Source of the DNA: Dehalococcoidia bacterium
GTDB lineage: Bacteria > Chloroflexota > Dehalococcoidia > Lucifugimonadales > UBA3495
DNA: 64,000 bases
Reading direction: 5' to 3'
Assembly: GCA_963664175.2 (NCBI GenBank)
Contig: CAXXOI010000013.1
Coordinates: forward strand, 9,784 to 73,783
The notes under the pieces were generated by a model, which did not search any database, had not been told where the DNA came from, and saw only the letters and a program-made list of their open reading frames with translations. Of this stretch, positions 10,498-51,402 are shown piece after piece (the stretch's first letter is position 1; each line of letters starts with the position of its first letter). Made by a program: the position numbers and the translations under genes.

Positions 10498-10499
10498 CC

Positions 10500-14263: not shown

Positions 14264-14314
14264 CCAGCTATTGATAGCATTGCTGGTTCGATTAATAAGA
14301 CCCCATTCAATTCA

Positions 14315-18120: not shown

Positions 18121-18164
18121 CATGTTGTATTGGGTGTTTGCCTGGGAGCTGCGGCAGGTGTGGC

Positions 18165-18425: not shown

Positions 18426-18450
18426 GATCGACTGAGACTCCTTGCGGTAG

Positions 18451-21400
18451 CTATTCTGCCACTCTAATTCGACCGAATTCCTCCACAAGTAGTTCCTCAT
18501 CACACAATTCCTGCACACGCAAACTGATCGCAGAGTTAATCTTCGAGCCTGCCCTCCCGAACCCATAAACCCTTGCAACTTCCCTTATCAACTCGGACCT
18601 GGGGGTCCCGAACATTGCCCTTACGGTCTCCACGATGACCGCTCTCAACTCGCCTGGGGGCACGTATTCAATCTTTCGATCACAGGCTGTGCGTGGTTGC
18701 CGCTCCAGTTGCTCGTCATCGACCCATACAAAGTCCTCGGCTCGATGGAGAGTTCCCTGTCCGACCAGATGGTCAATGAGCCGAAATACCCTCCCTCTGG
18801 CAGTGGCGGACAGGCGCTCTGAGTAGTAACACTCTTTTATGCGGTCCAGGACAGCCTCTATAGGTACAGGGCCCTCGACTTTCACAACTGTGCCAACAAG
18901 TTCCGTCAGGACATTAACGGACTCGTCGGCAATTCCGTAACGCGAACCGGTCCTTGGCAAAGGAGCTTTCTGGTATTGCGCCAGTTCCAGCTTGCTTGCC
19001 TCGGGCTGCATGACCTCGAACTCTTCCAAATCAGATGCAGGAGTAGGGTAAAAATCAGCGGGCGCCTCGGCCGTAACCGTGAAACTGCTCCTCGAGGCAA
19101 TAAGGGCCTCCTCGACACGCTTAATCTCTGCGTCCGGATTTTTGGCCCAGGCTGTGGACCAGATCCTCAAGATACGCCAGCCGAGGCCCTCGAGGACCTG
19201 TTGCCTTTGCCAGTCGCGGTCTCTAGCGGCAGGGGCGCTGTGATATTGCCATCCATCACACTCTATCCCCAGATCATAGCCGTCCGAGTCCTCCGACATA
19301 ATAGCCAGATCAATCCGGTAACCCGCCACTCCCACCTGACGGTGGATCCTGTACCCTCTGGCGAGCAGCGCCTTCTCAACGGACTCTTCGAAAGGAGAGT
19401 CGGGTTCGGCTTCAGGGTCCACGGTCACCTGACCTACGATGGCACGGTTTGGAGCCTCAGCGTATTCCAGGTAGCGTTTGAGCATCCTAGGACCGGTCCG
19501 ATCAGAGGTGATTGCCGATGGAAGCAGGGAATGGACTACATCCATCCGCCGCCGGGCCCTGGAAACCACTACATTAAGTCTCCGCTCGCCCCCGGGAGTG
19601 TTTAGGGGCCCGAACCTGTTCGGCGTAGCTCCGGATTCTTGCGTGGGACCGTAGCCAATGCTGACTATGATCCGGTCCCGCTCGTCTCCCTGGACGTTCT
19701 CTAGATTCTTGACGAAAAAAGGCTCATCCAAGTCCGCTGCGAAACGATGGTCAACATCGCGTCCGTTTAGGCGTCTATTTTCGATCAATCTGTCTATATG
19801 ATCGGCCTGAGCACGGGATAGCGCTACGACTCCAAGGCTCTCATGGGCAGGACGGGACCGCATATGTTCGAATACCAGGTCTGCCACGCGTTCCGCCTCA
19901 GCCCGGTTCGTCCTGGTGGCCCCAGCGTCATATCTGCCCTCAGGGATGTGGATGTCATGCACACCTTCCCAGGAATTACCATCCGATTGTGACGGAGAGG
20001 GAAAGGTGAGCAATCGGTCATCGTAGTAATAATGGTTGGAAAATCGGATCAAACTGTCGTGTTTGCTCCGATAGTGGACGGATAGATGCGCCTCGGAAAA
20101 AACTGAGCCGGCCAATCCGATTGCAACGTCGAGGATACTTTCCTGTCCAGCAAGACGGTCTTGCGGTTCTTCATATCCGTCTTCGTCGTATCCCTCTTCC
20201 TCCTGAGCCTGGGCCCGGAAGAAACTGCTGGGTGGTAACTGCTTCTGATCTCCAGCGAAAACCACCTGTTTGCCGCGCCGAACTGCGGGAATGGCATCTT
20301 CGGGAAAGACCTGGGACGCCTCGTCGAATATGACAACATCGAAATCCAAGTCCGGGGGGAGAGATTGACTGACCGCAAGAGGGCTGACCAGAAAACACGG
20401 CTTGAGTACCTGCACAAGCCGCGGAATATTCTGCAGCAATCTCCGAACACTCCACTGGCGCCGTTGTTTGGAAAGTTCTCGGCGCATTATTGCCAGGTCG
20501 CTGGTTCCGGAGGTCCCTACGCGAAGATCCGGGTAGGACTGAAATACCCGTTTGCGTATTTCGTTTTGCGCGGTGTCGACCAGCCTCTGGTCAAGGTCCC
20601 TGAATCTGTCAGCGTGAGTGGCGTGCTCAGACGTTCCGAACTGGGCGAGCTCGGGCTCCTGGGAATTTAGCCAATCGAGCCATGCCGTCCACAGGCGGCG
20701 CTGGATGACCAGGGGAACTACGGAGCTGTCGTCGGTAGCCTCTCTAATTCGAGACGTAGTACCGCTCCCGATGTGGTTGTCCAGATCAGAAACGGCACCC
20801 TGATAGGTCAGCCAGTCACCCGCCGAATCCGCTTCCGCCGCAAGTCTCTTGAGCCATTGAAGTGCGTGATCAAAATCGGTTTCCTCACCTTCGGCGAAGG
20901 GAGTGAACGCCAGGTCGTATCGTTCCTCCAGGGATTCCAGCAGCATCCACATGCGATCAACCGTTGCAGTGGCATGTTCTGCGGTTTCCCGGTACGCAGA
21001 TGCAGGCATGGGATGTTCCACTTGTTGAATAAGGCTCGACGAGAAGTCGGCAGTGGGCCTCAGTCCGATCAGGTGCCGGGCCCAATCCAAGGATTCCTCA
21101 ATCTCGGTCCAGTCGGTGTCGAAATCCCGGTAGCGCGCGCCGAATCCTAGCTGAAGGTCAACTTGCCGCTCCGTGTTCTCTCCTTCCAACCGGCGAACAC
21201 TGCTCCCCTTTTTCAACAAATTTTTCAGATGGACTACGTCAGGAATCGTGCCGCGGCTGGTATCAACAGAGGATTCCACCACCTTTTCAATCCTCTCCAC
21301 AATTCCTAGCGCTTCATCCAATTGCTCTGTGTAGTTCTTCAAGTTCAGGACGTCGTTCGATAACTTCTGCCCTACCTGCGTGTTTAGTTGGCTGCAATGC

Positions 21401-24054
21401 AGCTGGTTGGACGAGGCCAGACATTGCTCTAGTGAGGTCCCAAGCCGGGAGAAACGGTCAATAAGACCCGGGTCTACCAGTATTTCACGACGCCTCGAGA
21501 ATTGGGGCATCCCGGATTGGGCAGGCGTAAGGAAGCCGTCGACCTTGGAAATCTCCTGCAATACCGCATCCCAGTCGGTATGACGCCCCGCCATCCGGTC
21601 GCCCATCGCAGTCGCCAGCCGTTCCCTCCTTGAGTCCCAGTTGGCGGTGAGTTCCTTGAATTCGGCAACCTCGGATACCGCCTGCAACTCTTGTAGGAAC
21701 GTAGTGCTCCCGGCCGCGCGCCTCAGTGATCTTACGGTTCTTCGGTCTACCCTGTAACCTCCACCGAAAATTCGTTTGAGCTTTGACTGATGATCGGTCC
21801 GAAACCGTCTGATCATCGAATCGTCAATCGCCTCCAAGGCGGCGGACTGGAATTCCGAAAGAATATGAGCCTCAACCTCCTCCAATCTTGCGACGTTTTC
21901 CCTTGCCTCTTGGATTTCTCTGGCCGCCTCATTTCTTCCCGCGGTGGTCAACCAGCTATTGGGAACCGGGTGCATTCCCTCGATGGCCGTTGACCAGACA
22001 GCCAAGTTCTGTAGATCGCTCCATACCGTTGGCTGGGGAACAGACAGGAACTCGGCCACCCGCTCACCGTTGGACAGTACCAGGGATAAGCATTCCTTGA
22101 TTTGCCGTAGTATCGAGGATATAGGACGATTTTCACTCACAATACCGCGTTTCCAAGAGTCCTTTAGCGTATTGTCAACACACTCACTCCGGCCCAGAAG
22201 TGCCTCCAATTCCATTGACAGCCGATCGTAGTTCAATTCCGATAAAGGGCTACCAAAGTACGGGCTGATATCGTCCAATAGTTCAGCCCTTGCGCTTTGA
22301 TTCCTTTTTTCGCGCATCGCCGTTTCTGTGAGGTACTTCAGTTGATCCGGCTCCAGCCAATCCCTGGGCACGCCAGGGCTGGATGATAGATGGAGAGCCA
22401 ACTTGGCCTGCGCAGCAACTCCACTAAACTTGTGCGGAGCAGGCAAGTGCAATTTGCCCGCAAGCTCAGATGTTGCAGTGATTACGCCTTCGAAGTAGCC
22501 GACGGCCTGTTGCATATCGGCTCTTATGGTGTCCGCGACTTCGAAAGTCGGTGTAGAGCTTCTTAGTGCCCACCACGGACTGGTCTGATGTTCTCTAAAC
22601 TCCTTGTCCCTCACTAGGATGCGTTCGGCTGCACTGATAATGGACGCAAGTCTTCTCCGGTCCAACTGTTCAATGTTGTCGACAGGAAATGGGATGTGAG
22701 GTGTGTCTCGGATGGAGGTCAGTCTGCCGAGGACAGTGAAAGCGCTCATTCCCAACGGCTGACGTTCCTCGTGCAGTGCCCTCACATAGTCATTGAGTTT
22801 CTTCCGGGCCTGCTCCAGGTCCTCAAATGGAAAGTCTGAGCGTCGTACTCTTCTCGGATCGTCAACTGCCTGTTTGAGCTGCTGATAAAAATTTGACTTG
22901 TTGCCACGCTCCCCATGCAGGTCAAGGCAAAACCCGCCTAACTGGCTTTCGTCCAACCGGTTCTTTACCACGTCCAGGGCAGCATTTTTCTCACTGACGA
23001 ACAGGACGGTCTTTCCCTGCGCAAGACTCGTCGCGATTATGTTTGCGATCGTCTGGCTCTTCCCCGTGCCCGGCGGACCGTATATGACCAAGTTATGCCC
23101 GTCTGCTGCGGCTTTGATCGCCACTAGCTGGCTGAAGTCTGCCGGAAGAACAGCGAATTGGTCCCTTACCTTGAGCAGGTCGTCCAGTCGTCCACCAGCC
23201 AGGTCCCGTTCCCGCGGTAGTGGAGGAAGACGATCCATGTCGCTGCTGGACTTGGGAAGATTGACCCCGGCTAGGGTAGCGATCATGTCATTCCCGGTTG
23301 GGTTGTCCTTAATCGACTCCAAGTCATGCCACATGGCCAGCTTCGAGTATGAGAATACGGAAAGGAAGACGGTATCGTTGACAGTCCAGTGCGCTCTTTG
23401 GCTGAGCGCCTTGCGGTAGTGGTCCAGGCATTCGCCTGGAGTTTCCTCTTCGAAGTTCAGTTCCGGCAGGTCTATTCCGAAGTCGTTTCTCAGTTTCGCT
23501 GACAGCGTTGAGTTGGGGACAAGGACGTCGTCGATACACCGTAGAGTGAAGGGGCTTCGGGGCGAATTTCGGTCCAGCTCACAGGGGAGGAGCAGAAGGG
23601 GAGACTGGAGAGCATGTCCGTCGATGTCCTCCCACTCAAGCACGCCAAGAGCCAAGTACAGTACCGACAGGCCCTGTTCATCGCGAAACTCGTTCGCTCG
23701 GCGCATGAGGTTGCGAAGTCGCCTCTGGAGTTCAGGAACAGGGCAATCACCAATCAAGTCGCCCGAGATGAAATGTGAAGCGGTCTCCTCGTCATCGGTA
23801 CTCTCGGGGTCATCCGCCTGGTTATTCCGCAAAGCGATCACGGGTTCCGCATAATCGAAACCCAACCCTGCAGATACATTCAGGAGCGAGGAAAAAATGG
23901 CATCCGGAGCCCAGTTCGTTATCCTTACTGCGCTTCTGCCAGGGCGAAAATTCAGCAAATTGTTACGCCGGTCCAACTGAAGCAACCTGTTTTGCCAGCC
24001 GTTCACCACGGCGGTAATCTGTGCGCTTATCGATTCCAATTCAGATGCATCCAT
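18451..24054 (-). CDS. 1867-aa DUF4011 / Upf1-DNA2-like SF1 helicase / Vsr(DUF559)-like endonuclease / DUF3320 protein (Hhe-like single-gene defence candidate)
   Basis: LLQLDRRNNLLNFRPG (DUF4011-like), IYGPPGTGKSQTIANII, VVIFDEASQV, LNVVVSRARRRMDVV, GYRIDLAI...LGIECDGWQYHS...GWRILRIWS (Vsr/DUF559-type), and a C-terminal VVKVEGPVPIEAVLDRI (DUF3320-like). Confidence 0.85.
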   Translation of the reverse strand: MDASELESISAQITAVVNGWQNRLLQLDRRNNLLNFRPGRSAVRITNWAPDAIFSSLLNVSAGLGFDYAEPVIALRNNQADDPESTDDEETASHFISGDLIGDCPVPELQRRLRNLMRRANEFRDEQGLSVLYLALGVLEWEDIDGHALQSPLLLLPCELDRNSPRSPFTLRCIDDVLVPNSTLSAKLRNDFGIDLPELNFEEETPGECLDHYRKALSQRAHWTVNDTVFLSVFSYSKLAMWHDLESIKDNPTGNDMIATLAGVNLPKSSSDMDRLPPLPRERDLAGGRLDDLLKVRDQFAVLPADFSQLVAIKAAADGHNLVIYGPPGTGKSQTIANIIATSLAQGKTVLFVSEKNAALDVVKNRLDESQLGGFCLDLHGERGNKSNFYQQLKQAVDDPRRVRRSDFPFEDLEQARKKLNDYVRALHEERQPLGMSAFTVLGRLTSIRDTPHIPFPVDNIEQLDRRRLASIISAAERILVRDKEFREHQTSPWWALRSSTPTFEVADTIRADMQQAVGYFEGVITATSELAGKLHLPAPHKFSGVAAQAKLALHLSSSPGVPRDWLEPDQLKYLTETAMREKRNQSARAELLDDISPYFGSPLSELNYDRLSMELEALLGRSECVDNTLKDSWKRGIVSENRPISSILRQIKECLSLVLSNGERVAEFLSVPQPTVWSDLQNLAVWSTAIEGMHPVPNSWLTTAGRNEAAREIQEARENVARLEEVEAHILSEFQSAALEAIDDSMIRRFRTDHQSKLKRIFGGGYRVDRRTVRSLRRAAGSTTFLQELQAVSEVAEFKELTANWDSRRERLATAMGDRMAGRHTDWDAVLQEISKVDGFLTPAQSGMPQFSRRREILVDPGLIDRFSRLGTSLEQCLASSNQLHCSQLNTQVGQKLSNDVLNLKNYTEQLDEALGIVERIEKVVESSVDTSRGTIPDVVHLKNLLKKGSSVRRLEGENTERQVDLQLGFGARYRDFDTDWTEIEESLDWARHLIGLRPTADFSSSLIQQVEHPMPASAYRETAEHATATVDRMWMLLESLEERYDLAFTPFAEGEETDFDHALQWLKRLAAEADSAGDWLTYQGAVSDLDNHIGSGTTSRIREATDDSSVVPLVIQRRLWTAWLDWLNSQEPELAQFGTSEHATHADRFRDLDQRLVDTAQNEIRKRVFQSYPDLRVGTSGTSDLAIMRRELSKQRRQWSVRRLLQNIPRLVQVLKPCFLVSPLAVSQSLPPDLDFDVVIFDEASQVFPEDAIPAVRRGKQVVFAGDQKQLPPSSFFRAQAQEEEGYDEDGYEEPQDRLAGQESILDVAIGLAGSVFSEAHLSVHYRSKHDSLIRFSNHYYYDDRLLTFPSPSQSDGNSWEGVHDIHIPEGRYDAGATRTNRAEAERVADLVFEHMRSRPAHESLGVVALSRAQADHIDRLIENRRLNGRDVDHRFAADLDEPFFVKNLENVQGDERDRIIVSIGYGPTQESGATPNRFGPLNTPGGERRLNVVVSRARRRMDVVHSLLPSAITSDRTGPRMLKRYLEYAEAPNRAIVGQVTVDPEAEPDSPFEESVEKALLARGYRIHRQVGVAGYRIDLAIMSEDSDGYDLGIECDGWQYHSAPAARDRDWQRQQVLEGLGWRILRIWSTAWAKNPDAEIKRVEEALIASRSSFTVTAEAPADFYPTPASDLEEFEVMQPEASKLELAQYQKAPLPRTGSRYGIADESVNVLTELVGTVVKVEGPVPIEAVLDRIKECYYSERLSATARGRVFRLIDHLVGQGTLHRAEDFVWVDDEQLERQPRTACDRKIEYVPPGELRAVIVETVRAMFGTPRSELIREVARVYGFGRAGSKINSAISLRVQELCDEELLVEEFGRIRVAE

Positions 24055-24177
24055 TCCTGACTGATCCTCTGACAGGACCGGCTGATTACCATGACTCCTC
24101 GAATCGCTCGGGCAGCCAGGGCGATCTGCTGACCTTCAACTTTCCTTTGACAATCTCCCGGCATTTCAAGGCCGCGG

Positions 24178-24930
24178 TCAGGTCAGCCACTTGAGGGCCT
24201 CCCCGGCTGACTCGCCCCTGGTGTAACGGGCCACCATGTTGCCATTCTTCCACCGGCCTTGGCGCTGCACCGCAGCGTTGGGCGCTCCGGCAGCCACCAT
24301 CCGCCGGGCCATGCCGATGCGGCCGCTGTGCCCCGTGAACCCGTCGCCCAGGCCAGCGGCCCGTGCCGCGGCACGGACCCGGTTGGCCAAGGCCTCGCCG
24401 GTCAGTCCGAACACCGCAGCTGCGGGGTCGCTGTCCTTGGGCAAGATCTCCTGCAAGGCGCGGGCGGTGCTTTCCGTGAATGCCACAGTGGGTGGTGCGG
24501 GCTGGTTCTTGCCCTTCTGGACCGTGATGCGTCCGGTGCCGTCGTCCCAAAGTTCCACGTCGCCCCAGGACAGAGCCGCGGCCTCGGAGCGCCGGAGCCC
24601 GCCGTCGGCCAGGACCCCGATGATGGCCAGGTCCAGGGCGGCACGCTTGTTGGCAGTCTCCGCTGTTTCCAGCCGCCTTGACCGTGTGGGTCTGGCCCTT
24701 GTCTGCGTTCCGGACTCGGCAATCATGAGGCGGGGCCGATGATACAGCAGCACTATGGTGGCGTTGTACACCCGGTGGCTGGAATGAGGACCACGAGCCA
24801 GCTCCGTACTTGATACAGGGACTGCAACGCCATGCGCCATTGCCAACACGCGCTGGGAGCGCCTCCGGGGCGAATTGCCGTCCTTCCCAGACCGAGGGTG
24901 CGTGGCTTCGGCAGAGGAGCAGGCCGCCAA
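24178..24930 (-). CDS. Tyrosine recombinase catalytic domain protein, probably N-terminally truncated
   Basis: GGLRRSEAAALSWGDV (Arg), GHSGRIGMARRM (HxxR), NMVARYTRGE (Tyr). No convincing core-binding domain. The upstream part overlaps the read-through of the LRR gene. Confidence 0.65.
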   Translation of the reverse strand: MAACSSAEATHPRSGKDGNSPRRRSQRVLAMAHGVAVPVSSTELARGPHSSHRVYNATIVLLYHRPRLMIAESGTQTRARPTRSRRLETAETANKRAALDLAIIGVLADGGLRRSEAAALSWGDVELWDDGTGRITVQKGKNQPAPPTVAFTESTARALQEILPKDSDPAAAVFGLTGEALANRVRAAARAAGLGDGFTGHSGRIGMARRMVAAGAPNAAVQRQGRWKNGNMVARYTRGESAGEALKWLT

Positions 24931-26053
24931 GGTTGCCCACCAACTTGTCGTCCAGGCTGCTCGTCACGCACCCGATCAAGTCGTTGCTGCCGAGCTTCAG
25001 CTCTACTAGGTTGGCGAGGCTGCCCAGCTCCGCCGGTATCTCTCCACTCAACTGATTATTCCTGAGGTTCAGATTTGTCAGTCTGGGGAAGTTGCTCAGC
25101 CACGGTGGTATCTCCCCGGTCAAGGCGTTGTTGCCGAGACCCAAGAATGCCAGGTTGATAAGGCTGCCCAATTCTGGCGGAATTTCCCCGCTCAAGTCGT
25201 TGTCGCCGAGGTCCAGCACCTCCAGGTTGGAGAGGCTGTTCAGCGCCGGCGGTATCTCCCCACTCAACCGATTGTTATAGATGACCAGCTCTGTCAGGTT
25301 GGAGAGGCTGCGCAACTCCGGCGGTATCTCCCCGCTTAACTGGTTCCAGTTGAGGTACAGGCGTGCCAGGTTGGAGAGGCTGCCCAACTCCAGTGGTTTC
25401 TCCCCGCTCAACTAGTTCCCACCAAGGCCCAGAACTGTCAGGTTGGAGAGGTCGCCCAGCTCCAGTGGTATCTCCCCGTTCAAATCGTTGTGTTCGAGGT
25501 TTAGATATTTCAGGTTGGAGAGGTTGCCCAACTGGGGCGGTGTCTCCCCGCTCAACTGGTTCGCGGCGAGGTGCAGCTGTTTCAAGTCGACTAGGTTGCC
25601 CAGGTGCGGTGAAATCGGCCCAGCCAGCTGGTTATGGTTGAGCAACAATGCGATCACCCGTCCCGTGTCGTCAGTGACAACAAGGTCCCATTCCTCCAAG
25701 GGTGCGTCGCTAAGCCAGTTTGTGTTGTTCTTCCAGTTTGGGCCGTTTGTGGCATGGTAGAGGGCGACCAGGGCTTCCCGGTCTGTTTCGGTGGAGCCAG
25801 AAGCGGAAGGCAACGCCATAGCCGGTGCACCGGTGGGAGTGGGCGAGGCCCCTGACCCTGGCGTGGAACGCGTCTGTGCGGGGGAGGCCTGCGTCTCCGA
25901 ATCACCAATGGGCCGTTCAGAGTCGGGCAGGTCTGTCGGTTCGGCGGTGGCCCGTTCCGAGGATGGCACAGCCGTCGGCTGATCAGGACCGGCGCAGGCC
26001 AGCAGCAGCAGTGTCAAGGCAAAGCTTCCCAGGAAAAGTGGTGATGTTCTCAT
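24931..26053 (-). pseudogene. Leucine-rich-repeat lipoprotein (24-residue LSGEIPPELGxLxNL repeats), interrupted
   Basis: Start ATG at 26053 gives MRTSPLFLGSFALTLLLLACAG (lipobox). In-frame TAG at 25412-25414 within GGN*LSGE (the repeat consensus has Q). The expected C-terminal ...LGGLLLC is followed by read-through into unrelated DNA (track ORF 24086..25411). Confidence 0.7.
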
Positions 26054-26573
26054 ATCGCCGCAGTTCCTGCGTTTGCTTGGCCTTGGTGGTGCGGCGTGTT
26101 CGCATTCTAGCACTCGCCGGGGAATTCCCTGCCTCCGCACCCTGCACACCGGAGTCAACGACCCAGACAGTTTACCCGTCTGGCGTCCGTTTCGACTCCG
26201 CCGGTGGCAGTGGCTTGCTGTGTCCCATGGGAGCGCCAATGTCAAAAACACCCACCCGGGAGAGAATGCCTGATCCACACTCCAGCGGACGGGGGCAATT
26301 TCCCCTCGGAAGTAGCGTCGTTGCAGTCGGTCGTCAACGGTCAGGAGACGAGGCCCGTTCAGTCCACCGGGTTACGTCTGGCAGTCAGGGGACCGGTTGC
26401 GCTAACCGCTATTTCAGAGTTTTAAGGGGCCATCTCCCGTGTGCGAGACTATGGTCAGGACTCCCGGGTGCAGGGATTGTTCCACGCGACAACGAAAATG
26501 AAAGTTGACGTTGAACACCCCGCGCGCATGCCCGAAACCCCACTGTTTGATTCGTCGTTGTAACATTGGGTAA

Positions 26574-27029: not shown

Positions 27030-27194
27030 ATGGCCACGACCCCAGAATCCGTTGCCATCTACTGCCTGAAGTGCCGGGCCAAGACCGGCTCGAGGGATGT
27101 TGAACAGGTGACCATGAAGAATGGACGCCCGGCCCTTCGCGCTGTCTGCACCGTGTGCGGCACAGGCAAGTACCGCATCGGCTTCGCCGGATGA
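27030..27194 (+). CDS. Small zinc-ribbon protein (DUF5679-like, 54 aa)
   Basis: Below the ORF-track cutoff. Manual translation gives MATTPESVAIYCLKCRAKTGSRDVEQVTMKNGRPALRAVCTVCGTGKYRIGFAG, with two CxxC pairs and a GGAG-like site upstream. Confidence 0.6.
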   Translation: MATTPESVAIYCLKCRAKTGSRDVEQVTMKNGRPALRAVCTVCGTGKYRIGFAG

Positions 27195-27303
27195 ACCTGG
27201 CAGAGGTCCAGTTCATCGCGCTGGCTACCGTGTGCGGCACAGGCAAGTACCGCATCGGCTTCGCCGGATGAACCTGGCAGAGGTCCAGTTCATCGCGCTG
27301 GCT
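27150..27303. repeat. Perfect tandem duplication, 2 x 77 bp
   Basis: 27150-27226 and 27227-27303 are identical by eye. They cover the last 45 nt of the zinc-ribbon CDS plus 32 nt downstream. Confidence 0.95.
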
Positions 27304-27565
27304 TGTGCTTGCCTCAAAGGCAGAAATCCCAGCGAGGAGCCGCCATAGAGGAACATCAGCATCTGCGGGACGTAGCACAATGCGACGGCAATCACCGGCA
27401 ATGGGCGATTCACCGCCGAAGGCGTCAGGACCGAACTCAGCCTTTTGTATCCTGACACTCCAGCCTCGATTCAGTACAAGACTCCTCGCAGGCCAGCAAC
27501 CGCTTGGGAAACGGTTCTGCCAAGGACGTCGGTTGCATTAAATCTCACCGGAAAGGACGGCAATC

Positions 27566-28024
27566 ATGGAAACTTACATCGGAAAGGCGATTTCCGATTT
27601 CACCCTTCAGTCCAGCGATGGACGGACGATATCCCTTTGCAGCCTTCGCGGACAAAAGGTTCTGCTGTACTTCTTCACGAATCCGGGAGGTGGCAATTGA
27701 ACCCGCATGGCTCTTGGGTACCGAGAGCATGCTGCCAAGTTCACGGGGAAGAACGTCGTGGTGTTCGGAATCCATGACGGGAGCTTGGATACTGCCCGTC
27801 AGTGGGTCGAGAGAGAGCAGCTTCCGTTCGCGGTCCTGAACGACCCCGATAGACGAGTAGGAATTGAGTTGGGCATGTCCGCTCCAGGTGGAGAAAGGTA
27901 CGTCAAAGACCCGTCAGAGGGTAAAAGGCCCGCAGTTGTCATCGACGAACACGGTGTGATCTGTGAGTGGGAACCCGACATGAACCACACCGATCAGATT
28001 GCAGCATTGCTGGAGCGTCTGTAG
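27566..28024 (+). CDS. BCP/PrxQ-like peroxiredoxin with in-frame TGA (27698-27700) at the peroxidatic Cys position; candidate selenoprotein
   Basis: ATG at 27566 after GAAAGGA. METYIGKAISDFTLQSSDGRTISLCSLRGQKVLLYFFTNPGGGN[TGA]TRMALGYREHAAKF...VVVFGIHDGS... is in frame with track ORF 27707..28024. It aligns with E. coli Bcp [23 protein letters not shown] so that the TGA falls on Cys. Confidence 0.65.
27705..27732 (+). promoter_or_regulatory. SECIS-like hairpin 5 nt downstream of the peroxiredoxin TGA
   Basis: GCAUG(G)CUCUU-GGGUACC-GAGAGCAUGC: a stem of about 10 bp with one bulged G. The apical G residues lie 16-18 nt after the UGA. Confidence 0.5.
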
Positions 28025-28151
28025 GACGACCACAATAGTGCGGGATTTTGTACTGTTGCCCGCGCTTGTGCAGCCGGCATTTCGGCATTCGGCCTGGACT
28101 GTGGCTCAGCAGACCGATGAGGACCATGTAGGATGTGGCGAGACCCTAACG

Positions 28152-30235: not shown

Positions 30236-33200
30236 CTATTGGTACCGTTCCTCGAACCCTTCTGCACCATTCACCAGGACTACCTCAAAGCCGCTCACGT
30301 CACTTCCTTCAAACATGGTGAAATAGTACAGGTCCATTTCCATAGCCTTTACCTGTAGATCCACTTCGACGGGTTCGTTGTTCTGATCTGTAGCGTCGCC
30401 GCTCCAGCGGACGAAGGTCTTGGTGAACACGAACCGGCCGGGGATATCGAGGGAAGTTTGCCATTCAGTAATATCTCTGTTGTCTGCCAGGTATTGAACC
30501 TCGGTTGGGTTTCCATCCCAGTCTTCGAAATAGTTCGATCGCATCAGGCCTTCGCAATTCCACATGCCGTTCGAGAACTCGCAACTCTCATAGACGTCAG
30601 CCAGGGACGCGTCACTGACCTGCCCGTTATCGTCGTAGTACATCTTGTACAGCAGCTGTTTCAGGTGGATGCTGTAGCCGGTGGTGCCTGAGTGGTCCTC
30701 GTCCCATTCGCTCCAGTCAATCGTGTAATCGCCGTTGTGTTCCACCCGGGTTACAGCGAACCTGGTTACGGCGCATGCGGCGATCGTGCCGTCATTTTCA
30801 TCACTCCGGCACTGGCCGGCCACTCCGTCGTCTGTGGCTGGATTAGGCCGAGGAGGATCCTGCTGAGGCGGGTCTTGCTGGGGTGGATCCTGCTGGGGAT
30901 CCCCTTTGATTATCCTCGCCACGTATGTGGTGGACCCATCCCCCATGTCGTCGCTGACTTTGATGGTGACAACGTTTTCACCCAACGTGAGGTCTACATG
31001 ATGACCGTTCTTGCCGGGCCTGCTATCGGGGGGAGAAATATCCACTGACACTCCCGAACTGGCAGTGGGAGTCGCCACGACCTTGATTCGTTTCTTTTGG
31101 GCCGGCACACTGAGGTCATATTCGAGAACGCTGCTGTTGAAGGTGTAATCAATGTTTCCAAGCCTCAGATGTGACAGTGTTGTGTCGGCTGGGGGCGATG
31201 CGACCGTGTCAGCGGTCATCCCTTCCGAGCTCTTGCCGGTGCCTTCATCATCCGTGTAATCCACCATGGCACGGAGATACATCCCCACATCCGCCGTCTC
31301 CGGCATATAGGTGTCCGAAGAGGATCCGCTTATTGTCTCCCAGTTTGTGGACCCGTCCTGGGACCTTTCCCAGTGCCAGCTCTCGTCAGAGACTCCGTCG
31401 TCAGGGTCAGTCAACGTCGCTGTAATGGTCATTCCCACTTCCGGCTCCGTAGGCGACAAGGAGACCGTGCCCGGCTCATCAACGTTTACCAGGTTGATGG
31501 TTACTGTTATGTCGTCATCATTAGCCGAATCAGACTGGTGTTCAGCACTGAGGTTGTCAGTGACTTGCAACACTAGCTCGATGGATTGGGCTGCCTCGTA
31601 ATCCAAGACGGCCCCGGAAGCCACTTCCAGCCTGCCGGTGTTGGGGTCAACAAAGAACTTGTCGGAGTCTGTCCCCGTCGCCAGCGAATAAGTCAAAGTA
31701 TCCATATCCGCGTCCGATGCCGTCACTGCAGCACCAACCCTTGTTTCCGCCGGGGCGTTCTCGATGACCGAACGGGCGGCAGTTTCCCCTTCGTCAAACT
31801 CCGGCGCTGCGTTGGCCGGGCGGAACACGGCGTTGTCGGCAGTACCGATGGCCTCCTTGCCCGTGCCTTCTCCATCGCTATAAGAGGCCTTCGTGCGGAG
31901 GTACTTGCCAACGTCATTTGCCGAAGGCGTGTAGCTGCCGGAGGTGGCTCCGGTTATGTCAGTCCATGACTCGCTCTCGGTGCTGTCTGCTGTCTGCCAC
32001 TGCCATGTCAGGTCTCTTACCACTCGATCTGGGTCATCGAGTCGCGCGGACAGTTCCACCCCGAACTCAGGAGTGTCTGAGGATAAGATTACAGTTCCGG
32101 GATCATCCGCATTGGAAATATTGATTCTCACAAGGTGCCCGGAGTCCCACTCCGTGTCGGCCGCTCCGTAAGGCCCTTTGCTGTCCCGCACCCACACATA
32201 GAGAAAGTATCTCCGTTGGCCTTCATAATCCAGCTCTGCGTCCGTCTTCACGAATGGCTGACCATCAGTTGTTACGTCGAATGCGCTAATAGATCCGGAT
32301 TTAAATCCGAATGTCAGGCTGTCGCCTTCGGGGTCGGTCGCCGGCAGCGGGGTCCCAACGTTGGTTCCCGGCTCCGTGTCTTCGCTTACGATTAGCAACT
32401 CGAGAGCGTCGTCATCAAATGTCGGGGGAAGATTCGTAGGAGGGGCCGCAAGCACCGTGTTGTCGGTTTCCACCTCAATTGTCTTCGTATTTTCGCTGTC
32501 GAATCCATCAATGTAAGTGGCCTTGAAACGCAGCGTGTTATCAGCATCATCAGCCACAGGTGTGTATTCGAATGTGGCGCTGCTCGTGTCGGAGTCTGAT
32601 ATTTCGGTCCAGGTCTCGGAGTCCGTGCTCCTCTCCACTACCCAGTTGATCTGATTGTCATCCGTGAGGTCTACACCGTCGGGGTCAGTGAGAGTGGCAA
32701 CCAGAGCTGTGTCAACCTGGGGATTGGCGCTGCTCAGAGTGAGTTGCCCAATTTCCTCCGCGTTGGTTACCTGGATCTCAAATTCAAACTCGTCGTCCCA
32801 CGAATTTCTCGTACTTCCATCCCTGCCTTTGCCGTCCCGAACTTGCGCGGTCAGCTCAAACGTATCTTGACCCTCGTAGTCCAGGGACTTCCCGGTAGCC
32901 AACGTGACGTTCCCCTCGGTTATCTGGAAAGGATTACCCCTAGCGGGCAACAACCGGTAGGTGAGGTCATCCTGGTCCAGATCTGTGACATTGAGGGAAA
33001 CCAGGGTGTCCCCCTCTTCAGCGTCTTCAGCTACGGAAACGACCATACCGTCGGCATCGGTGAATTCGGGGTCGGCGTTGTGATTCACGCGAATCGTCAC
33101 GTTGATGGCATCGTCAATTGCATCGTCAGAGCCGTCCAGTTTGTTCTTGCCGTCACTAACTGAAGCGGTGAAGACAAACTCATCGCCTCCGGAAAAGTCC

Positions 33201-34891
33201 GTAGTTCCTGCCTTTGTGCGAATCTCGCCAGTTCCTGAATCCACGGTGAAGGAATCGGCGTCATCACCGGAAATGGAGTAGGTCAGTGTGTCTCCGTCGG
33301 TGTTTGCCACGTCCGGCAGATCGCCGACATGGCTGTCGCCATCAAGAGTGTAGTGGATCCTGAAGGAAGCGGAAGCTTCGCCGAAGGTGGGTATGGCGTT
33401 GAATTTGCCATAGGCATACAGCATCTCGTCATAACCGTCGGACACCCAGAACCTCAGGCCATGACTCGTCAGACCACCCGGTGGGTCGTTGTTGTCCGGC
33501 ACTAGGCGAAATTCTTTTGGCTTGCTTCGATTTCCGTCGGAGAGCCTGTACGCGTAGACATGCTTGTCATACCGGTCCAGGACCCAGATGGTCTGACCAT
33601 TCGACCATATTCCCTTTGGATCGCCGTTGTCCGAATGCAGGTCAATATCCCGGTCAGACTTGCGAGACCTGTTCGGGAGGTCGTAAGCATAAAGCTTGTC
33701 GTCCCCGGTGTCTGAGACCCACATTACGTCCCCGTTCGACCAGATTCCCCTTGGGTCTGAGTTATCCGAATCCAGAGTGACTGACTTGTACGGCGCGAGC
33801 GTCCCTACCTGGTTTGCCTCCGGTTCCATCGCATATGCATACAGAAAATCGTTTCTGTTCGATTGCGTTGCATCCTCAATTGCCCAAACCGTCTCGCCGT
33901 CCGACCAGATCGATAGCGGCCGTGTGTTAAAGTCCCCTAGTTGCACATCCTTGCCACTTTTCCGAAGACCGCTGCTGACGTCGTAGGCAATCAGCAGGCC
34001 GTGGTCAGACCTTCCAGTATCCGCGACCCACATGGTGTTTCCGTCGGTCCAGATTCCACCGGGCGTATCGACTTCATCGGTGCCAATTTCCTCCGACAGG
34101 TGACGGAAGTCCTTGTAGTACATAGCGTAAATTCGATCGTCGTATGTATCGACCACCCACATGGTCTCGCCGTCAGACCAGATACCCCGGGGCTTCCCGT
34201 TACCGAGTGGAAGTCTTATTTCCAGACTCTCATGACGTAGGACATCTGAGTAGGAATCAGTCAGAGTTGTATATGCGTAAAGCCTGCGATCTTCGAGGTC
34301 GTTCACCCAGACGCTCGAACCCTCGCCCCATATGCCCCAGGGATCGTCATTGCTTCCGGTCAGATTAAACTCCTCCGAACTCTGACGCGCACCGTCGGCA
34401 GTGCTGTAGGCATAGACATAGGTGTCGTCCTTGTCGACCACGTAGATGACTCCATCCTTCCCCCAAATGCCCCTGGGTCCATCGTTGCTTCCCGTCAGGT
34501 TTATGTCACGATCCCCTTCACGGTTGCCGTTACTGAGCTTGTATGCGTAAAGGTAGGTATCGTCCCAGTCCGCAACCCACATGATGGTGCCGTCTGACCA
34601 GATTCCCTGAGGCTTGCTGTTGCCGGCGCCTAGGTCGATATCCTTATTGGGTTTCCGGAATCCATCCGTCAGGTTGTAGGCCATAATCACGTCATGACCG
34701 TTGGTAACAACCCACAGCGTCGACCCGTCGGACCAGACCCCCCTCCAATCGTCATACAGGTTGAAGAGTTCGATGTCCCTGTCGGGGTTCTGCACCGCCG
34801 CATTCGAGGTTTCCTGGGTAAATACGAAGGAGATAATGGCGATCATTGCTGCTATAAAAACAGACAGTCGCGCAAACCGAACTATGCTCAT
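30236..34891 (-). CDS. 1551-aa secreted repeat protein (propeller-like GIWSDG repeats, cadherin-like domains, W-x-W modules, cadherin-like beta-sandwich, PQQD linker)
   Basis: Signal-like MSIVRFARLSVFIAAMIAIISFVFT. About 10 repeats of ~46 aa (GIWSDGxTMWVxD...LYAY). DGDTLTYSISGDDADSFTVDSGTGEI cadherin-type units. GDPQQDPPQQDPPQQDPP near the C-terminus. Confidence 0.85.
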   Translation of the reverse strand: MSIVRFARLSVFIAAMIAIISFVFTQETSNAAVQNPDRDIELFNLYDDWRGVWSDGSTLWVVTNGHDVIMAYNLTDGFRKPNKDIDLGAGNSKPQGIWSDGTIMWVADWDDTYLYAYKLSNGNREGDRDINLTGSNDGPRGIWGKDGVIYVVDKDDTYVYAYSTADGARQSSEEFNLTGSNDDPWGIWGEGSSVWVNDLEDRRLYAYTTLTDSYSDVLRHESLEIRLPLGNGKPRGIWSDGETMWVVDTYDDRIYAMYYKDFRHLSEEIGTDEVDTPGGIWTDGNTMWVADTGRSDHGLLIAYDVSSGLRKSGKDVQLGDFNTRPLSIWSDGETVWAIEDATQSNRNDFLYAYAMEPEANQVGTLAPYKSVTLDSDNSDPRGIWSNGDVMWVSDTGDDKLYAYDLPNRSRKSDRDIDLHSDNGDPKGIWSNGQTIWVLDRYDKHVYAYRLSDGNRSKPKEFRLVPDNNDPPGGLTSHGLRFWVSDGYDEMLYAYGKFNAIPTFGEASASFRIHYTLDGDSHVGDLPDVANTDGDTLTYSISGDDADSFTVDSGTGEIRTKAGTTDFSGGDEFVFTASVSDGKNKLDGSDDAIDDAINVTIRVNHNADPEFTDADGMVVSVAEDAEEGDTLVSLNVTDLDQDDLTYRLLPARGNPFQITEGNVTLATGKSLDYEGQDTFELTAQVRDGKGRDGSTRNSWDDEFEFEIQVTNAEEIGQLTLSSANPQVDTALVATLTDPDGVDLTDDNQINWVVERSTDSETWTEISDSDTSSATFEYTPVADDADNTLRFKATYIDGFDSENTKTIEVETDNTVLAAPPTNLPPTFDDDALELLIVSEDTEPGTNVGTPLPATDPEGDSLTFGFKSGSISAFDVTTDGQPFVKTDAELDYEGQRRYFLYVWVRDSKGPYGAADTEWDSGHLVRINISNADDPGTVILSSDTPEFGVELSARLDDPDRVVRDLTWQWQTADSTESESWTDITGATSGSYTPSANDVGKYLRTKASYSDGEGTGKEAIGTADNAVFRPANAAPEFDEGETAARSVIENAPAETRVGAAVTASDADMDTLTYSLATGTDSDKFFVDPNTGRLEVASGAVLDYEAAQSIELVLQVTDNLSAEHQSDSANDDDITVTINLVNVDEPGTVSLSPTEPEVGMTITATLTDPDDGVSDESWHWERSQDGSTNWETISGSSSDTYMPETADVGMYLRAMVDYTDDEGTGKSSEGMTADTVASPPADTTLSHLRLGNIDYTFNSSVLEYDLSVPAQKKRIKVVATPTASSGVSVDISPPDSRPGKNGHHVDLTLGENVVTIKVSDDMGDGSTTYVARIIKGDPQQDPPQQDPPQQDPPRPNPATDDGVAGQCRSDENDGTIAACAVTRFAVTRVEHNGDYTIDWSEWDEDHSGTTGYSIHLKQLLYKMYYDDNGQVSDASLADVYESCEFSNGMWNCEGLMRSNYFEDWDGNPTEVQYLADNRDITEWQTSLDIPGRFVFTKTFVRWSGDATDQNNEPVEVDLQVKAMEMDLYYFTMFEGSDVSGFEVVLVNGAEGFEERYQ

Positions 34892-36076: not shown

Positions 36077-36781
36077 TTAACGGCTGCCCACCCAGAGGTC
36101 ATTGGACTTCTTGTCGAATTTTCCGTTACCCGCTAGGTCATCGAGCCACACCCAGGTCTTGTTCAGCCAGCGCCAGCGGAAGTTCCTGATGAAGAAGCTT
36201 GGAATGGCATAGAACTTGCTCGGCGGCTTGGTCCAGGCGCAACGGCGGACGCAGGTGCTGCAGGTGTTACCGACACGGTTCTGGAAGGTCATGCACTTCT
36301 TCGCATCCACCTTCCACGACAAGACCCCGGTCGAATTGCTTTCGTCCAATGGCTCGAGACTTCGCCCTCCGGTCGTGATGGCCTTGGTGCCACACTTCGG
36401 GACGCAATTCAGGCACGCATTGCAGAACTCGGTGATACCCGAGTCCACGGCCCCAGCAAGCTCCTGAGGAAGGTCAGTGAAAATCTTGGAAATACGGCAG
36501 CACGCCCCCACCTTGGGATTGATCAAGAGGTCGTGTCTGCCCGCCTGCCCCAGGCCCGCGTCGACAGCCAGTGGGATGCTGAGCGCGGTATCGTTGGCCG
36601 CCGGATTCGCGTTGTATCCCAGCCTTCGAATGAACTCCGCCACCATCCACAGCGATGGCGCCATTCCTACCATCTTTTCTGGGGGTTTTGTAAACCGCTG
36701 AATGAACTTCACCCTGTTCCGAGGAGGTGACGCAAGGCTGGAGGATGGACCTCCGGGGCGGTCCACTTTGGAAAATCGCAC
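36077..36781 (-). pseudogene. Reductive dehalogenase (RdhA)-like C-terminal half only
   Basis: AGLGQAGRHDLLINPKVG, FCNACLNCVPKCGTKAI (Cx2Cx2Cx3C) and C-x10-CSTCVRRC (second Fe-S motif). No TAT leader or N-terminal half. The ORF abuts the next gene. Confidence 0.6.
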
Positions 36782-51305: not shown

Positions 51306-51402
51306 GGGAGTGGATGGGGCCCGGTGGCCCTTGCGGTCTTCAAAACCGTTATGCCTCGTTAGAAGCGGGGTAGGTGGGTTCGACTCCCTCGCACTCCCGC
51401 CA
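51306..51402 (+). tRNA. selC: tRNA-Sec (anticodon UCA), 97 nt including encoded CCA
   Basis: Acceptor GGGAGUG / CACUCCC, discriminator G, CCA. A 6-bp D stem GGGGCC/GGCCCU with the 4-nt loop CGGU. Anticodon loop CUUCAAA (same as E. coli selC). Long variable arm. GGUUCGACUCC T-loop region. One mismatch each in the 8th acceptor pair and in the T stem. Confidence 0.85.

What the first reader, a model, noticed from the sequence alone, without database searches (positions are those of the whole stretch)
27566..28024. Peroxiredoxin with UGA at the peroxidatic-Cys position plus a downstream hairpin: candidate selenoprotein
Seen in sequence: an ATG at 27566 with an upstream ribosome-binding site opens a frame that reaches the track ORF 27707..28024 through a single TGA (27698-27700), giving a 152-aa product of normal BCP/PrxQ length. 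Alignment by eye to E. coli Bcp ([23 protein letters not shown] versus VLLYFFTNPGGGN-U-TRMALGYRE) puts the TGA exactly on the catalytic Cys. A stable hairpin (27705-27732, about 10 bp, bulged G, G-containing apical loop 16-18 nt after the UGA) follows, as expected for a bacterial SECIS. A tRNA-Sec gene lies in the same window. Caveats: the usual Thr of the TxxC motif is not conserved (GGNU), and the gene sits in a pseudogene-rich island, so a simple TGC/TGT-to-TGA nonsense mutation remains possible. Sec-containing Prx-like proteins have been reported in selenoproteome surveys, so this is a notable annotation catch rather than a new family.
Basis: partly seen in the sequence, partly recalled or inferred. 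Interest (0 to 1): 0.65.

Follow-up and report, generated by a model that had tools for sequence, protein, structure and literature searches.

The report
Selenocysteine peroxiredoxin-like gene, mis-annotated as truncated
This is a real selenoprotein gene: a small peroxiredoxin-fold enzyme whose catalytic residue is selenocysteine, encoded by a UGA that gene callers read as a stop, so public databases hold only its last 105 residues.

Summary
ATG 27566, in-frame TGA 27698-27700 and TAG 28022-28024 give a 152-residue AhpC/TSA protein (Pfam PF00578, 76 bits). The UGA aligns with the peroxidatic Cys of solved BCP/PrxQ structures.

Of 70 homologous loci in Dehalococcoidia/SAR202 genomes (46-93% protein identity), 69 have TGA at this codon and one has TGC. 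Third-position bias shows coding selection on both sides of the UGA.

A 17-nt hairpin (CUCUYGG-GUA-CCGRGAG, 27711-27727) starts 10 nt after the UGA. It pairs fully in all 30 distinct sequences and shows compensatory changes at two pairs. Synonymous variation over it is suppressed (p = 0.001), and the Cys form lacks it.

A tRNA-Sec gene lies at 51306-51402. TGA ends 5 of 19 other large ORFs, so the codon is not reassigned. selA, selB and selD cannot be checked in a 64-kb window, but a published table lists them in two related MAGs.

The subfamily is unusual. Its motif is PGGGN-U-TRM, so it lacks the Pro and Thr of PxxxTxxC. Sec forms far outnumber Cys forms, no NCBIfam model covers it, and sponge-type genomes carry 2-3 copies.

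Verdict: a new member, with variant features, of the known Sec-containing Prx-fold proteins.

The parts
27550..27557 (+). Shine-Dalgarno-like GGAAAGGA, 8 nt upstream of the ATG
   Evidence: Read from the sequence. The stretch is conserved in the alignment of 14 loci.
27566..28024 (+). Complete selenoprotein coding sequence: 152 residues with Sec at position 45, then a TAG stop. AhpC/TSA (peroxiredoxin-fold) protein.
   Evidence: Translation. Pfam PF00578 at 76.4 bits against a cut-off of 26. Alignment to solved BCP/PrxQ chains. Full-length homologues with Cys at the same column.
27698..27700 (+). UGA codon read as selenocysteine, at the position of the peroxidatic Cys
   Evidence: TGA in 69 of 70 homologous genome loci and TGC in one. 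It aligns to the Cys of 'TPGC' in 5enu_A.
27711..27727 (+). Conserved 17-nt SECIS core: 7-bp stem CUCUUGG/CCGAGAG with a GUA loop, starting 10 nt after the UGA
   Evidence: Paired in 100% of 30 distinct sequences, with compensatory changes at 2 pairs; GGGUACC is invariant. Synonymous variation is suppressed over it.
27705..27732 (+). Extended hairpin: a 5-bp lower stem GCAUG/CAUGC and a bulged G, around the core
   Evidence: Minimum-free-energy fold. The lower stem is kept only in the relatives at 85% identity or more; 13 of 30 cells are broken at its top pair.
27707..28024 (+). The 105-residue ORF that gene callers report in place of the full gene. This is an annotation artefact.
   Evidence: About 90 database homologues are exactly 105 aa and start at this Met. 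Cluster members are named only 'peroxiredoxin'.
28025..28149 (+). Conserved 3' flank that travels with the gene and ends sharply at ...GAGACCCTA. It is predicted to form a long imperfect hairpin. Role unknown.
   Evidence: Alignment of 14 loci. RNAalifold on 10 loci.
51306..51402 (+). tRNA-Sec (anticodon UCA), the decoder needed for the UGA
   Evidence: ARAGORN. Rfam RF01852 at 69.8 bits, E = 3e-12.

Best explanation
The gene 27566-28024 encodes a 152-residue peroxiredoxin-fold selenoprotein.

Decoding (inferred from the established E. coli model). As the ribosome reaches UGA 27698-27700, the 17-nt hairpin that starts 10 nt downstream (27711-27727, G/U-containing apical loop) recruits SelB-GTP carrying Sec-tRNA(Sec). 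That tRNA is encoded at 51306-51402. Selenocysteine is inserted instead of terminating.

Position in the protein (shown by alignment and by a model of a Cys homologue). Sec45 lies in the first turn of helix alpha2, right after strand beta3. This is the position of the peroxidatic Cys in BCP/PrxQ peroxiredoxins.

Chemistry (inferred). The selenolate most likely attacks a peroxide or a similar oxidant and forms a selenenic acid. An external thiol partner then reduces it, in a 1-Cys-type cycle, because the family has no conserved second Cys. The conserved Arg (R121 in '..KRPAVVID') is kept. The Pro and Thr of the canonical PxxxTxxC motif are replaced by a Gly-rich loop (T-x-P-G-G-G-N-U), so the substrate may differ from that of classic peroxiredoxins.

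Shown: the conserved UGA, coding constraint on both sides, a covarying hairpin, the tRNA-Sec gene and the fold. Inferred: SelB-dependent insertion, peroxidase chemistry and the reductant.
For: 1. TGA at the homologous codon in 69 of 70 loci from Dehalococcoidia/SAR202/Chloroflexota genomes at 46-93% protein identity; TGC in L061.

2. Metagenomic full-length homologues have Cys there, in GGNNC-TRM. A 'Trp' version (P0002) is TGA translated with another code table.

3. Both halves evolve as one reading frame. Among 49 distinct close sequences, variable sites at codon positions 1/2/3 are 12/7/30 of 40 upstream of the UGA and 29/25/72 of 107 downstream.

4. Hairpin. Seven upper-stem pairs are paired in all 30 distinct sequences. 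Pair 20-36 changes CG to GC in 3 sequences. Pair 23-33 changes UA to AU or GC in 3 and to UG in 9. Pair 24-32 is UG or CG. Shifting the 3' partners drops pairing from 90% to 33-51%.

5. Only 3 of 12 third positions vary in codons 46-57, against 99 of 135 elsewhere (Fisher p = 0.0013).

6. The Cys-form gene has GGC CUC GGC UAC AAG GAG in place of the hairpin sequence.

7. tRNA-Sec is present in the window.

8. TGA terminates 5 of 19 large ORFs in the window, so it is an ordinary stop elsewhere.

9. Fold. PF00578 at 76 bits. Best PDB sequence matches are BCP/PrxQ chains 5enu, 2ywn and 3drn, with U on the peroxidatic Cys. The AF2 model of Cys homologue P0012 (pLDDT 85.6) puts Cys46 at the start of helix 44-55 after strand 32-37. 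Its best structural matches are BCP, PrxQ and AhpE, with TM 0.80-0.84.

10. In free-living-type relatives the gene sits in stable housekeeping synteny: an RsmG-like gene, leuB, this gene, a beta-propeller protein and a ThDP enzyme, in 7 genomes (neighbours named from reading their sequences, not tested against Pfam).

11. SelA, SelB and SelD are listed for SAR202 bin16 and bin87, which carry orthologues L047 and L040 (PMC5649159 Table S4).
Against: - selA, selB and selD are not in the 64-kb window, and the source genome could not be identified. An exact look-up of the 105-aa product found nothing.
- No Rfam SECIS family matches 27600-27850, even at E up to 10. Rfam has no general bacterial SECIS model, so this is weak evidence.
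- The hairpin in the window alone is only z = -2.2.
- The compensatory changes come from one divergent clade (L067-L069), so they may represent few independent events.
- The Pro and Thr that define the peroxiredoxin active site are absent. Peroxidase activity is therefore not assured.
- The window copy lies among IS remnants and pseudogenes. No promoter was assessed, so expression of this particular copy is unproven.
Confidence: 0.88

Rival explanations
1. Pseudogene. A TGC/TGT-to-TGA nonsense mutation inactivated an ordinary Cys peroxiredoxin in a decaying, IS-rich island, and the hairpin is coincidental.
For: The neighbourhood holds an IS630 remnant, a frameshifted helicase and an IS110 fragment. 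A few related copies are clearly broken: L052 and L053 are truncated and L055 is frameshifted. P0038 is fused to what I recognise, untested, as an IS21-type transposase N-terminus, and P0015 is frameshifted.
Against: The same TGA is present in 69 of 70 loci across 46-93% identity, including single-copy genes in conserved housekeeping synteny. Codon-position bias shows purifying selection upstream and downstream in one frame. The hairpin covaries and constrains synonymous sites. The window copy keeps every invariant residue of the family.
Confidence: 0.03
2. It is a true selenoprotein but not a peroxidase. It would be a Sec-dependent thiol/selenosulfide oxidoreductase or a reductase for another substrate, using the Prx/Trx fold only as a scaffold.
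For: The Pro and Thr of PxxxTxxC, which position and activate peroxide in peroxiredoxins, are replaced by T...GGGN in both the Sec and the Cys forms. No NCBIfam peroxiredoxin equivalog reaches its cut-off; the best, NF006960, scores 60.8 against 140 bits. Weak hits go to ResA-like and SelL-related redox models. ResA and other thiol-disulfide oxidoreductases are among the top structural matches.
Against: There is no CxxC/UxxC partner residue; the sequence is U-T-R-M. The conserved Arg of peroxiredoxins is retained. The best sequence and structure matches are BCP, PrxQ and AhpE.
Confidence: 0.3
3. UGA is read as a standard amino acid (Trp or Gly) because the organism uses an altered genetic code, or by near-cognate read-through without selenium.
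For: Some database entries translate the codon as Trp (P0002 and P0022).
Against: Those entries come from TGA in the DNA, read with another code table. TGA ends 5 of 19 long ORFs in this window. The aligned residue in non-TGA homologues is Cys, not Trp or Gly. A dedicated tRNA-Sec and a SECIS-type hairpin are present.
Confidence: 0.02
4. Two separate products. A 44-residue peptide ends at the UGA, and an independent 105-residue protein starts at Met48, as currently annotated.
For: Gene callers predict the 105-aa ORF in about 90 database entries.
Against: A 105-aa product would lack strands beta1-beta3 and the catalytic residue of the fold. Cys homologues are continuous 153-aa proteins. There is no ribosome-binding site before Met48; the codons there are the UGA and ACC CGC.
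Confidence: 0.03

Closest known systems
Sec-containing peroxiredoxin (Prx, PF00578, TxxU motif; e.g. PrxU of Eubacterium acidaminophilum, as listed in PMC13188914 and PMC2398784)
   Same: Same Pfam family. Sec replaces the peroxidatic Cys at the start of helix alpha2. A bacterial SECIS hairpin lies inside the coding sequence right after the UGA. The conserved active-site Arg is kept.
   Different: The motif here is T-x-P-G-G-G-N-U, not PxxxTxxU; both the Pro and the Thr are missing. There is no conserved resolving Cys. Sec forms outnumber Cys forms: 69 to 1 among the genome loci. In the GOS survey, Prx had 253 Sec against 7,348 Cys homologues (PMC2398784).
BCP/PrxQ peroxiredoxins (E. coli Bcp; PDB 5enu, 3drn, 2ywn, 3ixr) and the 1-Cys AhpE (1xxu)
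   Same: These are the best sequence and structure matches, with similar length (about 150-160 aa) and topology.
   Different: Identity is only 17-26%. The score is below the NCBIfam BCP equivalog cut-off (60.8 against 140 bits). The catalytic residue is Sec, and the PxxxTxxC signature is degenerate.
Prx-like thiol:disulfide oxidoreductase selenoproteins (PF00578, UxxC/UxxU; 'Prx-like 1' and 'Prx-like (UGC)' of the ocean surveys)
   Same: AhpC/TSA-fold selenoproteins found mostly in marine metagenomes, predicted by the same logic of a UGA/Cys pair plus a hairpin.
   Different: Those families have a second redox residue (UxxC, UxxU or UGC). This one has U-T-R-M, with no partner Cys or Sec.
E. 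coli fdhF SECIS / SelB recoding system
   Same: A stem-loop a short, fixed distance 3' of the UGA, with G and U in a small apical loop. From my own knowledge, the minimal fdhF element is a 17-nt upper stem-loop placed 11 nt after the UGA. Here a 17-nt stem-loop lies 10 nt after the UGA.
   Different: The sequences are unrelated. There is no bulged U in the conserved upper stem; the bulged G sits below it and only in close relatives. SelB binding was not tested.

Membership tests
Bacterial selenoprotein gene (SelB/SECIS-dependent UGA recoding) | In-frame UGA that aligns with Cys in homologues | tested here: met
   Cys forms GGNNC-TRM (P0012-P0014, P0017-P0021; L061 has TGC) against GGGN-U-TRM.
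Bacterial selenoprotein gene (SelB/SECIS-dependent UGA recoding) | UGA conserved among orthologues, with coding constraint on both sides | tested here: met
   69 of 70 loci have TGA. Third-position bias holds upstream (12/7/30) and downstream (29/25/72) of the UGA.
Bacterial selenoprotein gene (SelB/SECIS-dependent UGA recoding) | Stem-loop immediately 3' of the UGA with a small G-containing apical loop, conserved as structure | tested here: met
   7-bp stem and GUA loop, with the loop starting 17 nt after the UGA. Paired in 100% of 30 distinct sequences, with 2 pairs showing two-sided changes. Synonymous sites are suppressed.
Bacterial selenoprotein gene (SelB/SECIS-dependent UGA recoding) | Match to a curated SECIS covariance model | tested here: not met
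   No Rfam family hit on 27600-27850 at E up to 10. This says little, because Rfam has no general bacterial SECIS model, and bSECISearch was not available.
Bacterial selenoprotein gene (SelB/SECIS-dependent UGA recoding) | tRNA-Sec in the genome | tested here: met
   51306-51402: ARAGORN and RF01852 at 69.8 bits.
Bacterial selenoprotein gene (SelB/SECIS-dependent UGA recoding) | selA, selB and selD in the same genome | not testable with these tools
   They are not among the ORFs scanned in the window, and the source genome was not identified. Indirect support: SelA, SelB and SelD are listed for SAR202 bin16 and bin87, which carry orthologues (PMC5649159 Table S4).
Bacterial selenoprotein gene (SelB/SECIS-dependent UGA recoding) | Selenium actually incorporated (75Se labelling or mass spectrometry) | not testable with these tools
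   This needs an experiment.
Peroxiredoxin (AhpC/TSA, BCP/PrxQ-type) | AhpC/TSA domain above Pfam's gathering score | tested here: met
   PF00578 at 76.4 bits against 26, covering residues 5-132.
Peroxiredoxin (AhpC/TSA, BCP/PrxQ-type) | Catalytic Cys/Sec in the first turn of helix alpha2 of a thioredoxin fold | tested here: met
   AF2 model of Cys homologue P0012: strand 32-37, Cys46, helix 44-55. Foldseek TM 0.80-0.84 to BCP, PrxQ and AhpE. Sequence alignment to 5enu_A.
Peroxiredoxin (AhpC/TSA, BCP/PrxQ-type) | Universal PxxxT/SxxC active-site motif (Pro and Thr/Ser) | tested here: not met
   The window has T38-N-P-G-G-G-N-U45. The aligned positions of Pro and Thr are Thr and Gly, and this holds across the family.
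Peroxiredoxin (AhpC/TSA, BCP/PrxQ-type) | Conserved active-site Arg | tested here: met
   R121 in 'G(K/R)RPAVVID' is invariant and aligns with the Arg of 'ERSTFLID' in 5enu_A.
Peroxiredoxin (AhpC/TSA, BCP/PrxQ-type) | Score above a curated equivalog model (NCBIfam BCP/PrxQ) | tested here: not met
   NF006960 at 60.8 against a cut-off of 140 bits; NF053650 at 43.1 against 260.
Peroxiredoxin (AhpC/TSA, BCP/PrxQ-type) | Peroxidase activity | not testable with these tools
   This needs an enzyme assay.
Prx-like thiol:disulfide oxidoreductase selenoproteins (UxxC/UxxU/UGC) | Second redox residue 1-3 positions after Sec | tested here: not met
   The sequence is U-T-R-M-A. No Cys is conserved anywhere else in the family.

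The most novel reading that the evidence does not exclude
This would be a previously unrecognised, Sec-dominant, Dehalococcoidia/SAR202-restricted clade of Prx-fold selenoproteins. Its catalytic loop (PGGGN-U-TRM) has dispensed with the Pro and Thr thought universal in peroxiredoxins. The clade has been amplified to 2-3 copies per genome and moved on mobile DNA in sponge-associated lineages. In this window the gene is cargo of a roughly 47-kb island inserted in the tRNA-Sec gene itself. An island that targets selC would guarantee that any recipient can decode its selenoprotein cargo.
Probability: 0.2. Interest if true: 0.65.

Novelty: new member of a known kind. Interest (0 to 1): 0.45.

Why it matters
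Annotation. This gene family is systematically mis-annotated. About 90 database entries are 105-residue stubs that lack the catalytic residue. Antioxidant and selenium-use capacity in SAR202/Dehalococcoidia is therefore under-counted; these bacteria are abundant in the deep ocean and in sponges.

Biochemistry. The family offers a natural test of whether the Thr and Pro of the peroxiredoxin active site are dispensable, both when the nucleophile is selenocysteine and in the matching GGNNC Cys forms.

Genome biology. Copy-number amplification in sponge-type genomes, together with the published enrichment of SelA and SelB in sponge symbionts (PMC5649159), points to selenium-dependent redox defence as a possible symbiosis trait.

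Tried and rejected
1. Other selenoprotein genes in the window. I scanned all six frames for ORFs bridged by one TGA and ranked them by downstream folding energy. Nothing convincing appeared. The one tblastn-supported candidate (36476, minus strand) is an out-of-frame read of a reductive-dehalogenase-like gene fragment.

2. Second copy in the window. tblastn found none.

3. Integron cassette or MITE idea for the recurring 27479-28149 core. I looked for attC R''/R' boxes and for terminal inverted repeats by eye on the alignments and folded the 3' flank. There were no canonical boxes and no clear terminal inverted repeats. The left boundary also varies between loci. I did not pursue this further.

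4. Rfam SECIS models. No hit.

I modelled Cys homologue P0012 instead.

6. Exact look-up of the window's 105-aa product, to identify the source genome, found nothing on record.

7. tRNA-Sec next to the other 60 loci. None within 3 kb, so linkage to tRNA-Sec is specific to this window.

8. Literature searches for SAR202, Chloroflexi or sponge-symbiont selenoproteins found no description of this subfamily. The library is incomplete, so prior description cannot be excluded.

Full report
**1. The observation**

The sequence is as described. A ribosome-binding site GGAAAGGA (27550-27557) precedes the ATG at 27566. The frame runs through one TGA (27698-27700) to TAG (28022-28024) and gives 152 residues. 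With Cys in place of the stop, the protein matches Pfam AhpC/TSA PF00578 at 76.4 bits against a gathering score of 26.

phmmer against PDB sequences finds BCP/PrxQ peroxiredoxins: 5enu_A at E = 1e-10, plus 2ywn and 3drn. The alignment '...LYFFTNPGGGN[U]T' against 'LYFYPKDNTPGCT' puts the UGA on the peroxidatic Cys.

The hairpin is GCAUG-G-CUCUUGG-GUA-CCGAGAG-CAUGC at 27705-27732 and is the minimum-free-energy fold. Taken alone it is only moderately better than shuffles (z = -2.2). A tRNA-Sec gene lies at 51306-51402.

**2. Comparative test of the UGA**

A protein search returned about 90 homologues that are exactly 105 residues long. They start at the Met three codons after the UGA and are 57-92% identical to the window's protein. 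It also returned N-terminal fragments ending '...SPGGGN', and about ten full-length 153-residue proteins with Cys at the aligned position, in the motif GGNNC-TRM.

A scan of one genome per species returned 70 loci, all from Dehalococcoidia, SAR202 or other Chloroflexota MAGs, except one binned as Caldilineaceae. Reading the DNA, 69 loci have TGA at the homologous codon and one (L061) has TGC. Protein identity spans 46-93%.

Two odd database versions were resolved. The 'Trp' in P0002 is a TGA translated with another code table. The 'Arg' in P0010 is CGA, one base away from TGA, on a single 914-bp contig that still keeps the hairpin.

Only 3 of the 69 TGA copies carry additional damage (L052, L053, L055).

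Among 49 distinct close sequences, variable sites fall at codon positions 1/2/3 as 12/7/30 of 40 upstream of the UGA and 29/25/72 of 107 downstream. Both parts therefore evolve as one protein-coding frame. TGA ends 5 of 19 long ORFs in the window, so it is an ordinary stop elsewhere.

These results exclude a recent nonsense mutation, a split gene and a reassigned codon.

**3. The hairpin**

Across 30 distinct sequences the 7-bp upper stem and its GUA loop are always paired, and GGGUACC is invariant.
- Pair 20-36 switches CG to GC in three sequences.
- Pair 23-33 is UA in 18, UG in 9, AU in 2 and GC in 1.
- Pair 24-32 is CG in 17 and UG in 13.
- Sliding the 3' partners by 1-3 columns drops pairing from 90% to 33-51%.

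The two-sided changes accompany amino-acid changes (MALGYRE to HSRGYRD) in clade L067-L069, so the codons changed in a coordinated way. They come from one clade, so the number of independent events is small.

In the close group only 3 of 12 third positions vary in codons 46-57, against 99 of 135 elsewhere (p = 0.0013). This indicates an RNA-level constraint overlapping the coding sequence.

The Cys-form gene has GGC CUC GGC UAC AAG GAG there and does not form the stem. The 5-bp lower stem is kept only in close relatives.

The geometry is a 17-nt stem-loop starting 10 nt after the UGA, with the loop beginning 17 nt after it and containing G and U. [quoted passage not shown] No Rfam SECIS family matched, but Rfam has no general bacterial model.

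**4. The Sec machinery**

Only tRNA-Sec is in the window. None of the ORFs scanned there is SelA, SelB or SelD.

The source genome could not be identified. Its nearest relatives are complete Dehalococcoidia MAGs: L001 (OZ247426.1, 93% protein identity) and L027 (OY763410.1, 90% DNA identity over 3.8 kb).

Slaby et al. (PMC5649159) report SelA and SelB enriched in sponge symbiont bins. Their Table S4 lists SelA/SelB/SelD counts of 1/1/1 for SAR202 bin16 and 3/1/1 for bin87. These are the genomes that hold orthologues L047 and L040. This evidence is indirect but supportive.

**5. What the protein is**

An AF2 model of Cys homologue P0012 (61% identical; pLDDT 85.6) has the thioredoxin/Prx topology, with Cys46 at the start of helix 44-55 after strand 32-37. 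Foldseek ranks BCP, PrxQ and AhpE first (TM 0.80-0.84), with ResA-type oxidoreductases close behind.

The family keeps the active-site Arg (R121) but lacks the Pro and Thr of PxxxTxxC. Its loop is T-x-P-G-G-G/N-N-U/C in both the Sec and the Cys forms. There is no second conserved Cys, and the sequence after Sec is T-R-M.

It therefore fits none of the published motif classes for Sec-containing Prx-fold proteins: TxxU, UxxC, UxxU, UGC or UxxS (PMC2398784 and PMC13188914). No NCBIfam model reaches its cut-off.

Best reading: a 1-Sec thiol peroxidase-like enzyme reduced by an external thiol. A different substrate is a real possibility.

**6. Genomic setting**

In small-genome, free-living-type relatives the gene is single-copy, between leuB and a beta-propeller protein, with an RsmG-like gene and a ThDP enzyme nearby (7 genomes). 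I named these neighbours from reading their sequences and did not test them against Pfam.

In the 4-5 Mb genomes it occurs in 2-3 copies. Many of these genomes are from sponge-symbiont projects, judging from the record names and PMC5649159. Examples are three copies within 68 kb in CAXXKY010000003.1 and three in CBDCPE010000004.1.

A core equal to window 27479-28149 recurs in several unrelated flanks. It has a sharp right edge at ...GAGACCCTA, often followed by an IS630-family transposase.

In the window the gene is flanked by an IS630 remnant, a broken RecD-like helicase and an IS110 fragment.

The whole stretch 3864-51345 is bounded by a direct repeat. The repeat consists of the 3' end of a tyrosine integrase gene plus the first 40 nt of tRNA-Sec, up to the anticodon loop. 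The selenoprotein gene is therefore cargo of an island inserted in the tRNA-Sec gene.

**7. Comparison and novelty**

Sec-containing peroxiredoxins and Prx-like proteins have been known since 2001 and from ocean selenoproteome surveys. The kind is not new, and the decoding mechanism is the standard bacterial one.

What seems unrecorded is this particular subfamily:
- it is Sec-dominant (69 to 1 in genomes);
- it is restricted to Dehalococcoidia/SAR202;
- it has a degenerate active-site signature;
- it is amplified on mobile DNA in sponge-type genomes;
- it is uniformly truncated in public annotation.

I file it as a new member of a known kind with variant features. Interest is moderate.

**8. 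Confidence**

| Claim | Confidence |
|---|---|
| The UGA encodes Sec | about 0.9 |
| The enzyme is a peroxidase in the strict sense | about 0.5-0.6 |
| This particular window copy is expressed | unknown |

Noticed in passing
window 3640-3863 and 51104-51345 (island about 3864-51345): Near-identical direct repeat made of the 3' end of a tyrosine-integrase gene plus the first 40 nt of tRNA-Sec. Identity stops in the anticodon loop (...GGTCTTCAAA). The left copy has a truncated integrase (3351-3803) and a truncated tRNA. The right copy has a full integrase (50248-51165) and the intact tRNA-Sec. This outlines a roughly 47.5-kb integrative island in the tRNA-Sec gene that replaces the 5' half of the tRNA. 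From my own knowledge, that is the mirror image of the usual 3'-end integration.
   Followed up: partly
L001-L055 (e.g. L008/L015/L042 on CAXXKY010000003.1; L019/L031/L038 on CBDCPE010000004.1): The Sec-Prx gene is present in 2-3 copies per genome in large (4-5 Mb) Dehalococcoidia MAGs. A core equal to window 27479-28149 is embedded in at least four different flanks. The right boundary is sharp at ...GAGACCCTA and is often followed by an IS630-family transposase. How the unit spreads is unresolved.
   Followed up: partly
window 28025-28149: The 125-nt 3' flank is as conserved as the coding region. It is predicted to form a long imperfect hairpin, with arms at about 28059-28072 and 28127-28140. 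There is no T-run and there are no canonical attC boxes. Function unknown.
   Followed up: partly
window 27137-27226 and 27216-27303: A tandem repeat of about 90 bp (97% identity) lies inside the IS630-like remnant upstream of the gene.
   Followed up: no
window 6848-24054: Defence-type gene cluster inside the island: a ResIII helicase (6848-10072), an N6/N4 DNA methylase (10500-13334), an AbiJ N-terminal domain protein (13379-14263), a UvrD-like helicase (14315-16393), and an 1867-aa DUF4011/AAA_11/AAA_12/MTES_1575 nuclease-helicase (18451-24054, minus strand).
   Followed up: no
window 24086-26278 (-), 30236-34891 (-), 43711-45324 (-): Proteins of types common in eukaryotes: leucine-rich-repeat proteins, a 1551-aa cadherin-domain protein and a TIG-domain protein. 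Together with the closest relatives, this would fit a sponge-symbiont origin (my inference, not tested).
   Followed up: no
window 36077-36781 (-): ORF with weak, sub-threshold Pfam hits to the reductive dehalogenase C-terminus and to 4Fe-4S dicluster domains. It is probably a fragment of an RdhA-like gene.
   Followed up: partly
window 52901-53578 (-): A second thioredoxin-fold gene lies 1.5 kb from the tRNA-Sec. It is a TlpA/ResA-like putative lipoprotein with an ordinary CGPC motif, so it is not a selenoprotein.
   Followed up: yes
L074 184-645 (Tara Oceans contig, protein P0010): One homologue has CGA (Arg) instead of TGA while keeping the hairpin sequence intact. It is either a very recent Sec-to-Arg mutation or a sequencing or assembly error. 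P0002 and P0022 show 'W' only because TGA was translated with another code table.
   Followed up: yes
L059, L060, L062, L064, L065, L066, L070 (about 1000-6400 in each): In small-genome relatives the gene sits in conserved synteny: an RsmG-like methyltransferase, leuB, the Sec-Prx gene, a 337-aa beta-propeller (BNR/Ycf48-like) protein and a ThDP-dependent enzyme. I named the neighbours from reading their sequences and did not test them against Pfam.
   Followed up: partly
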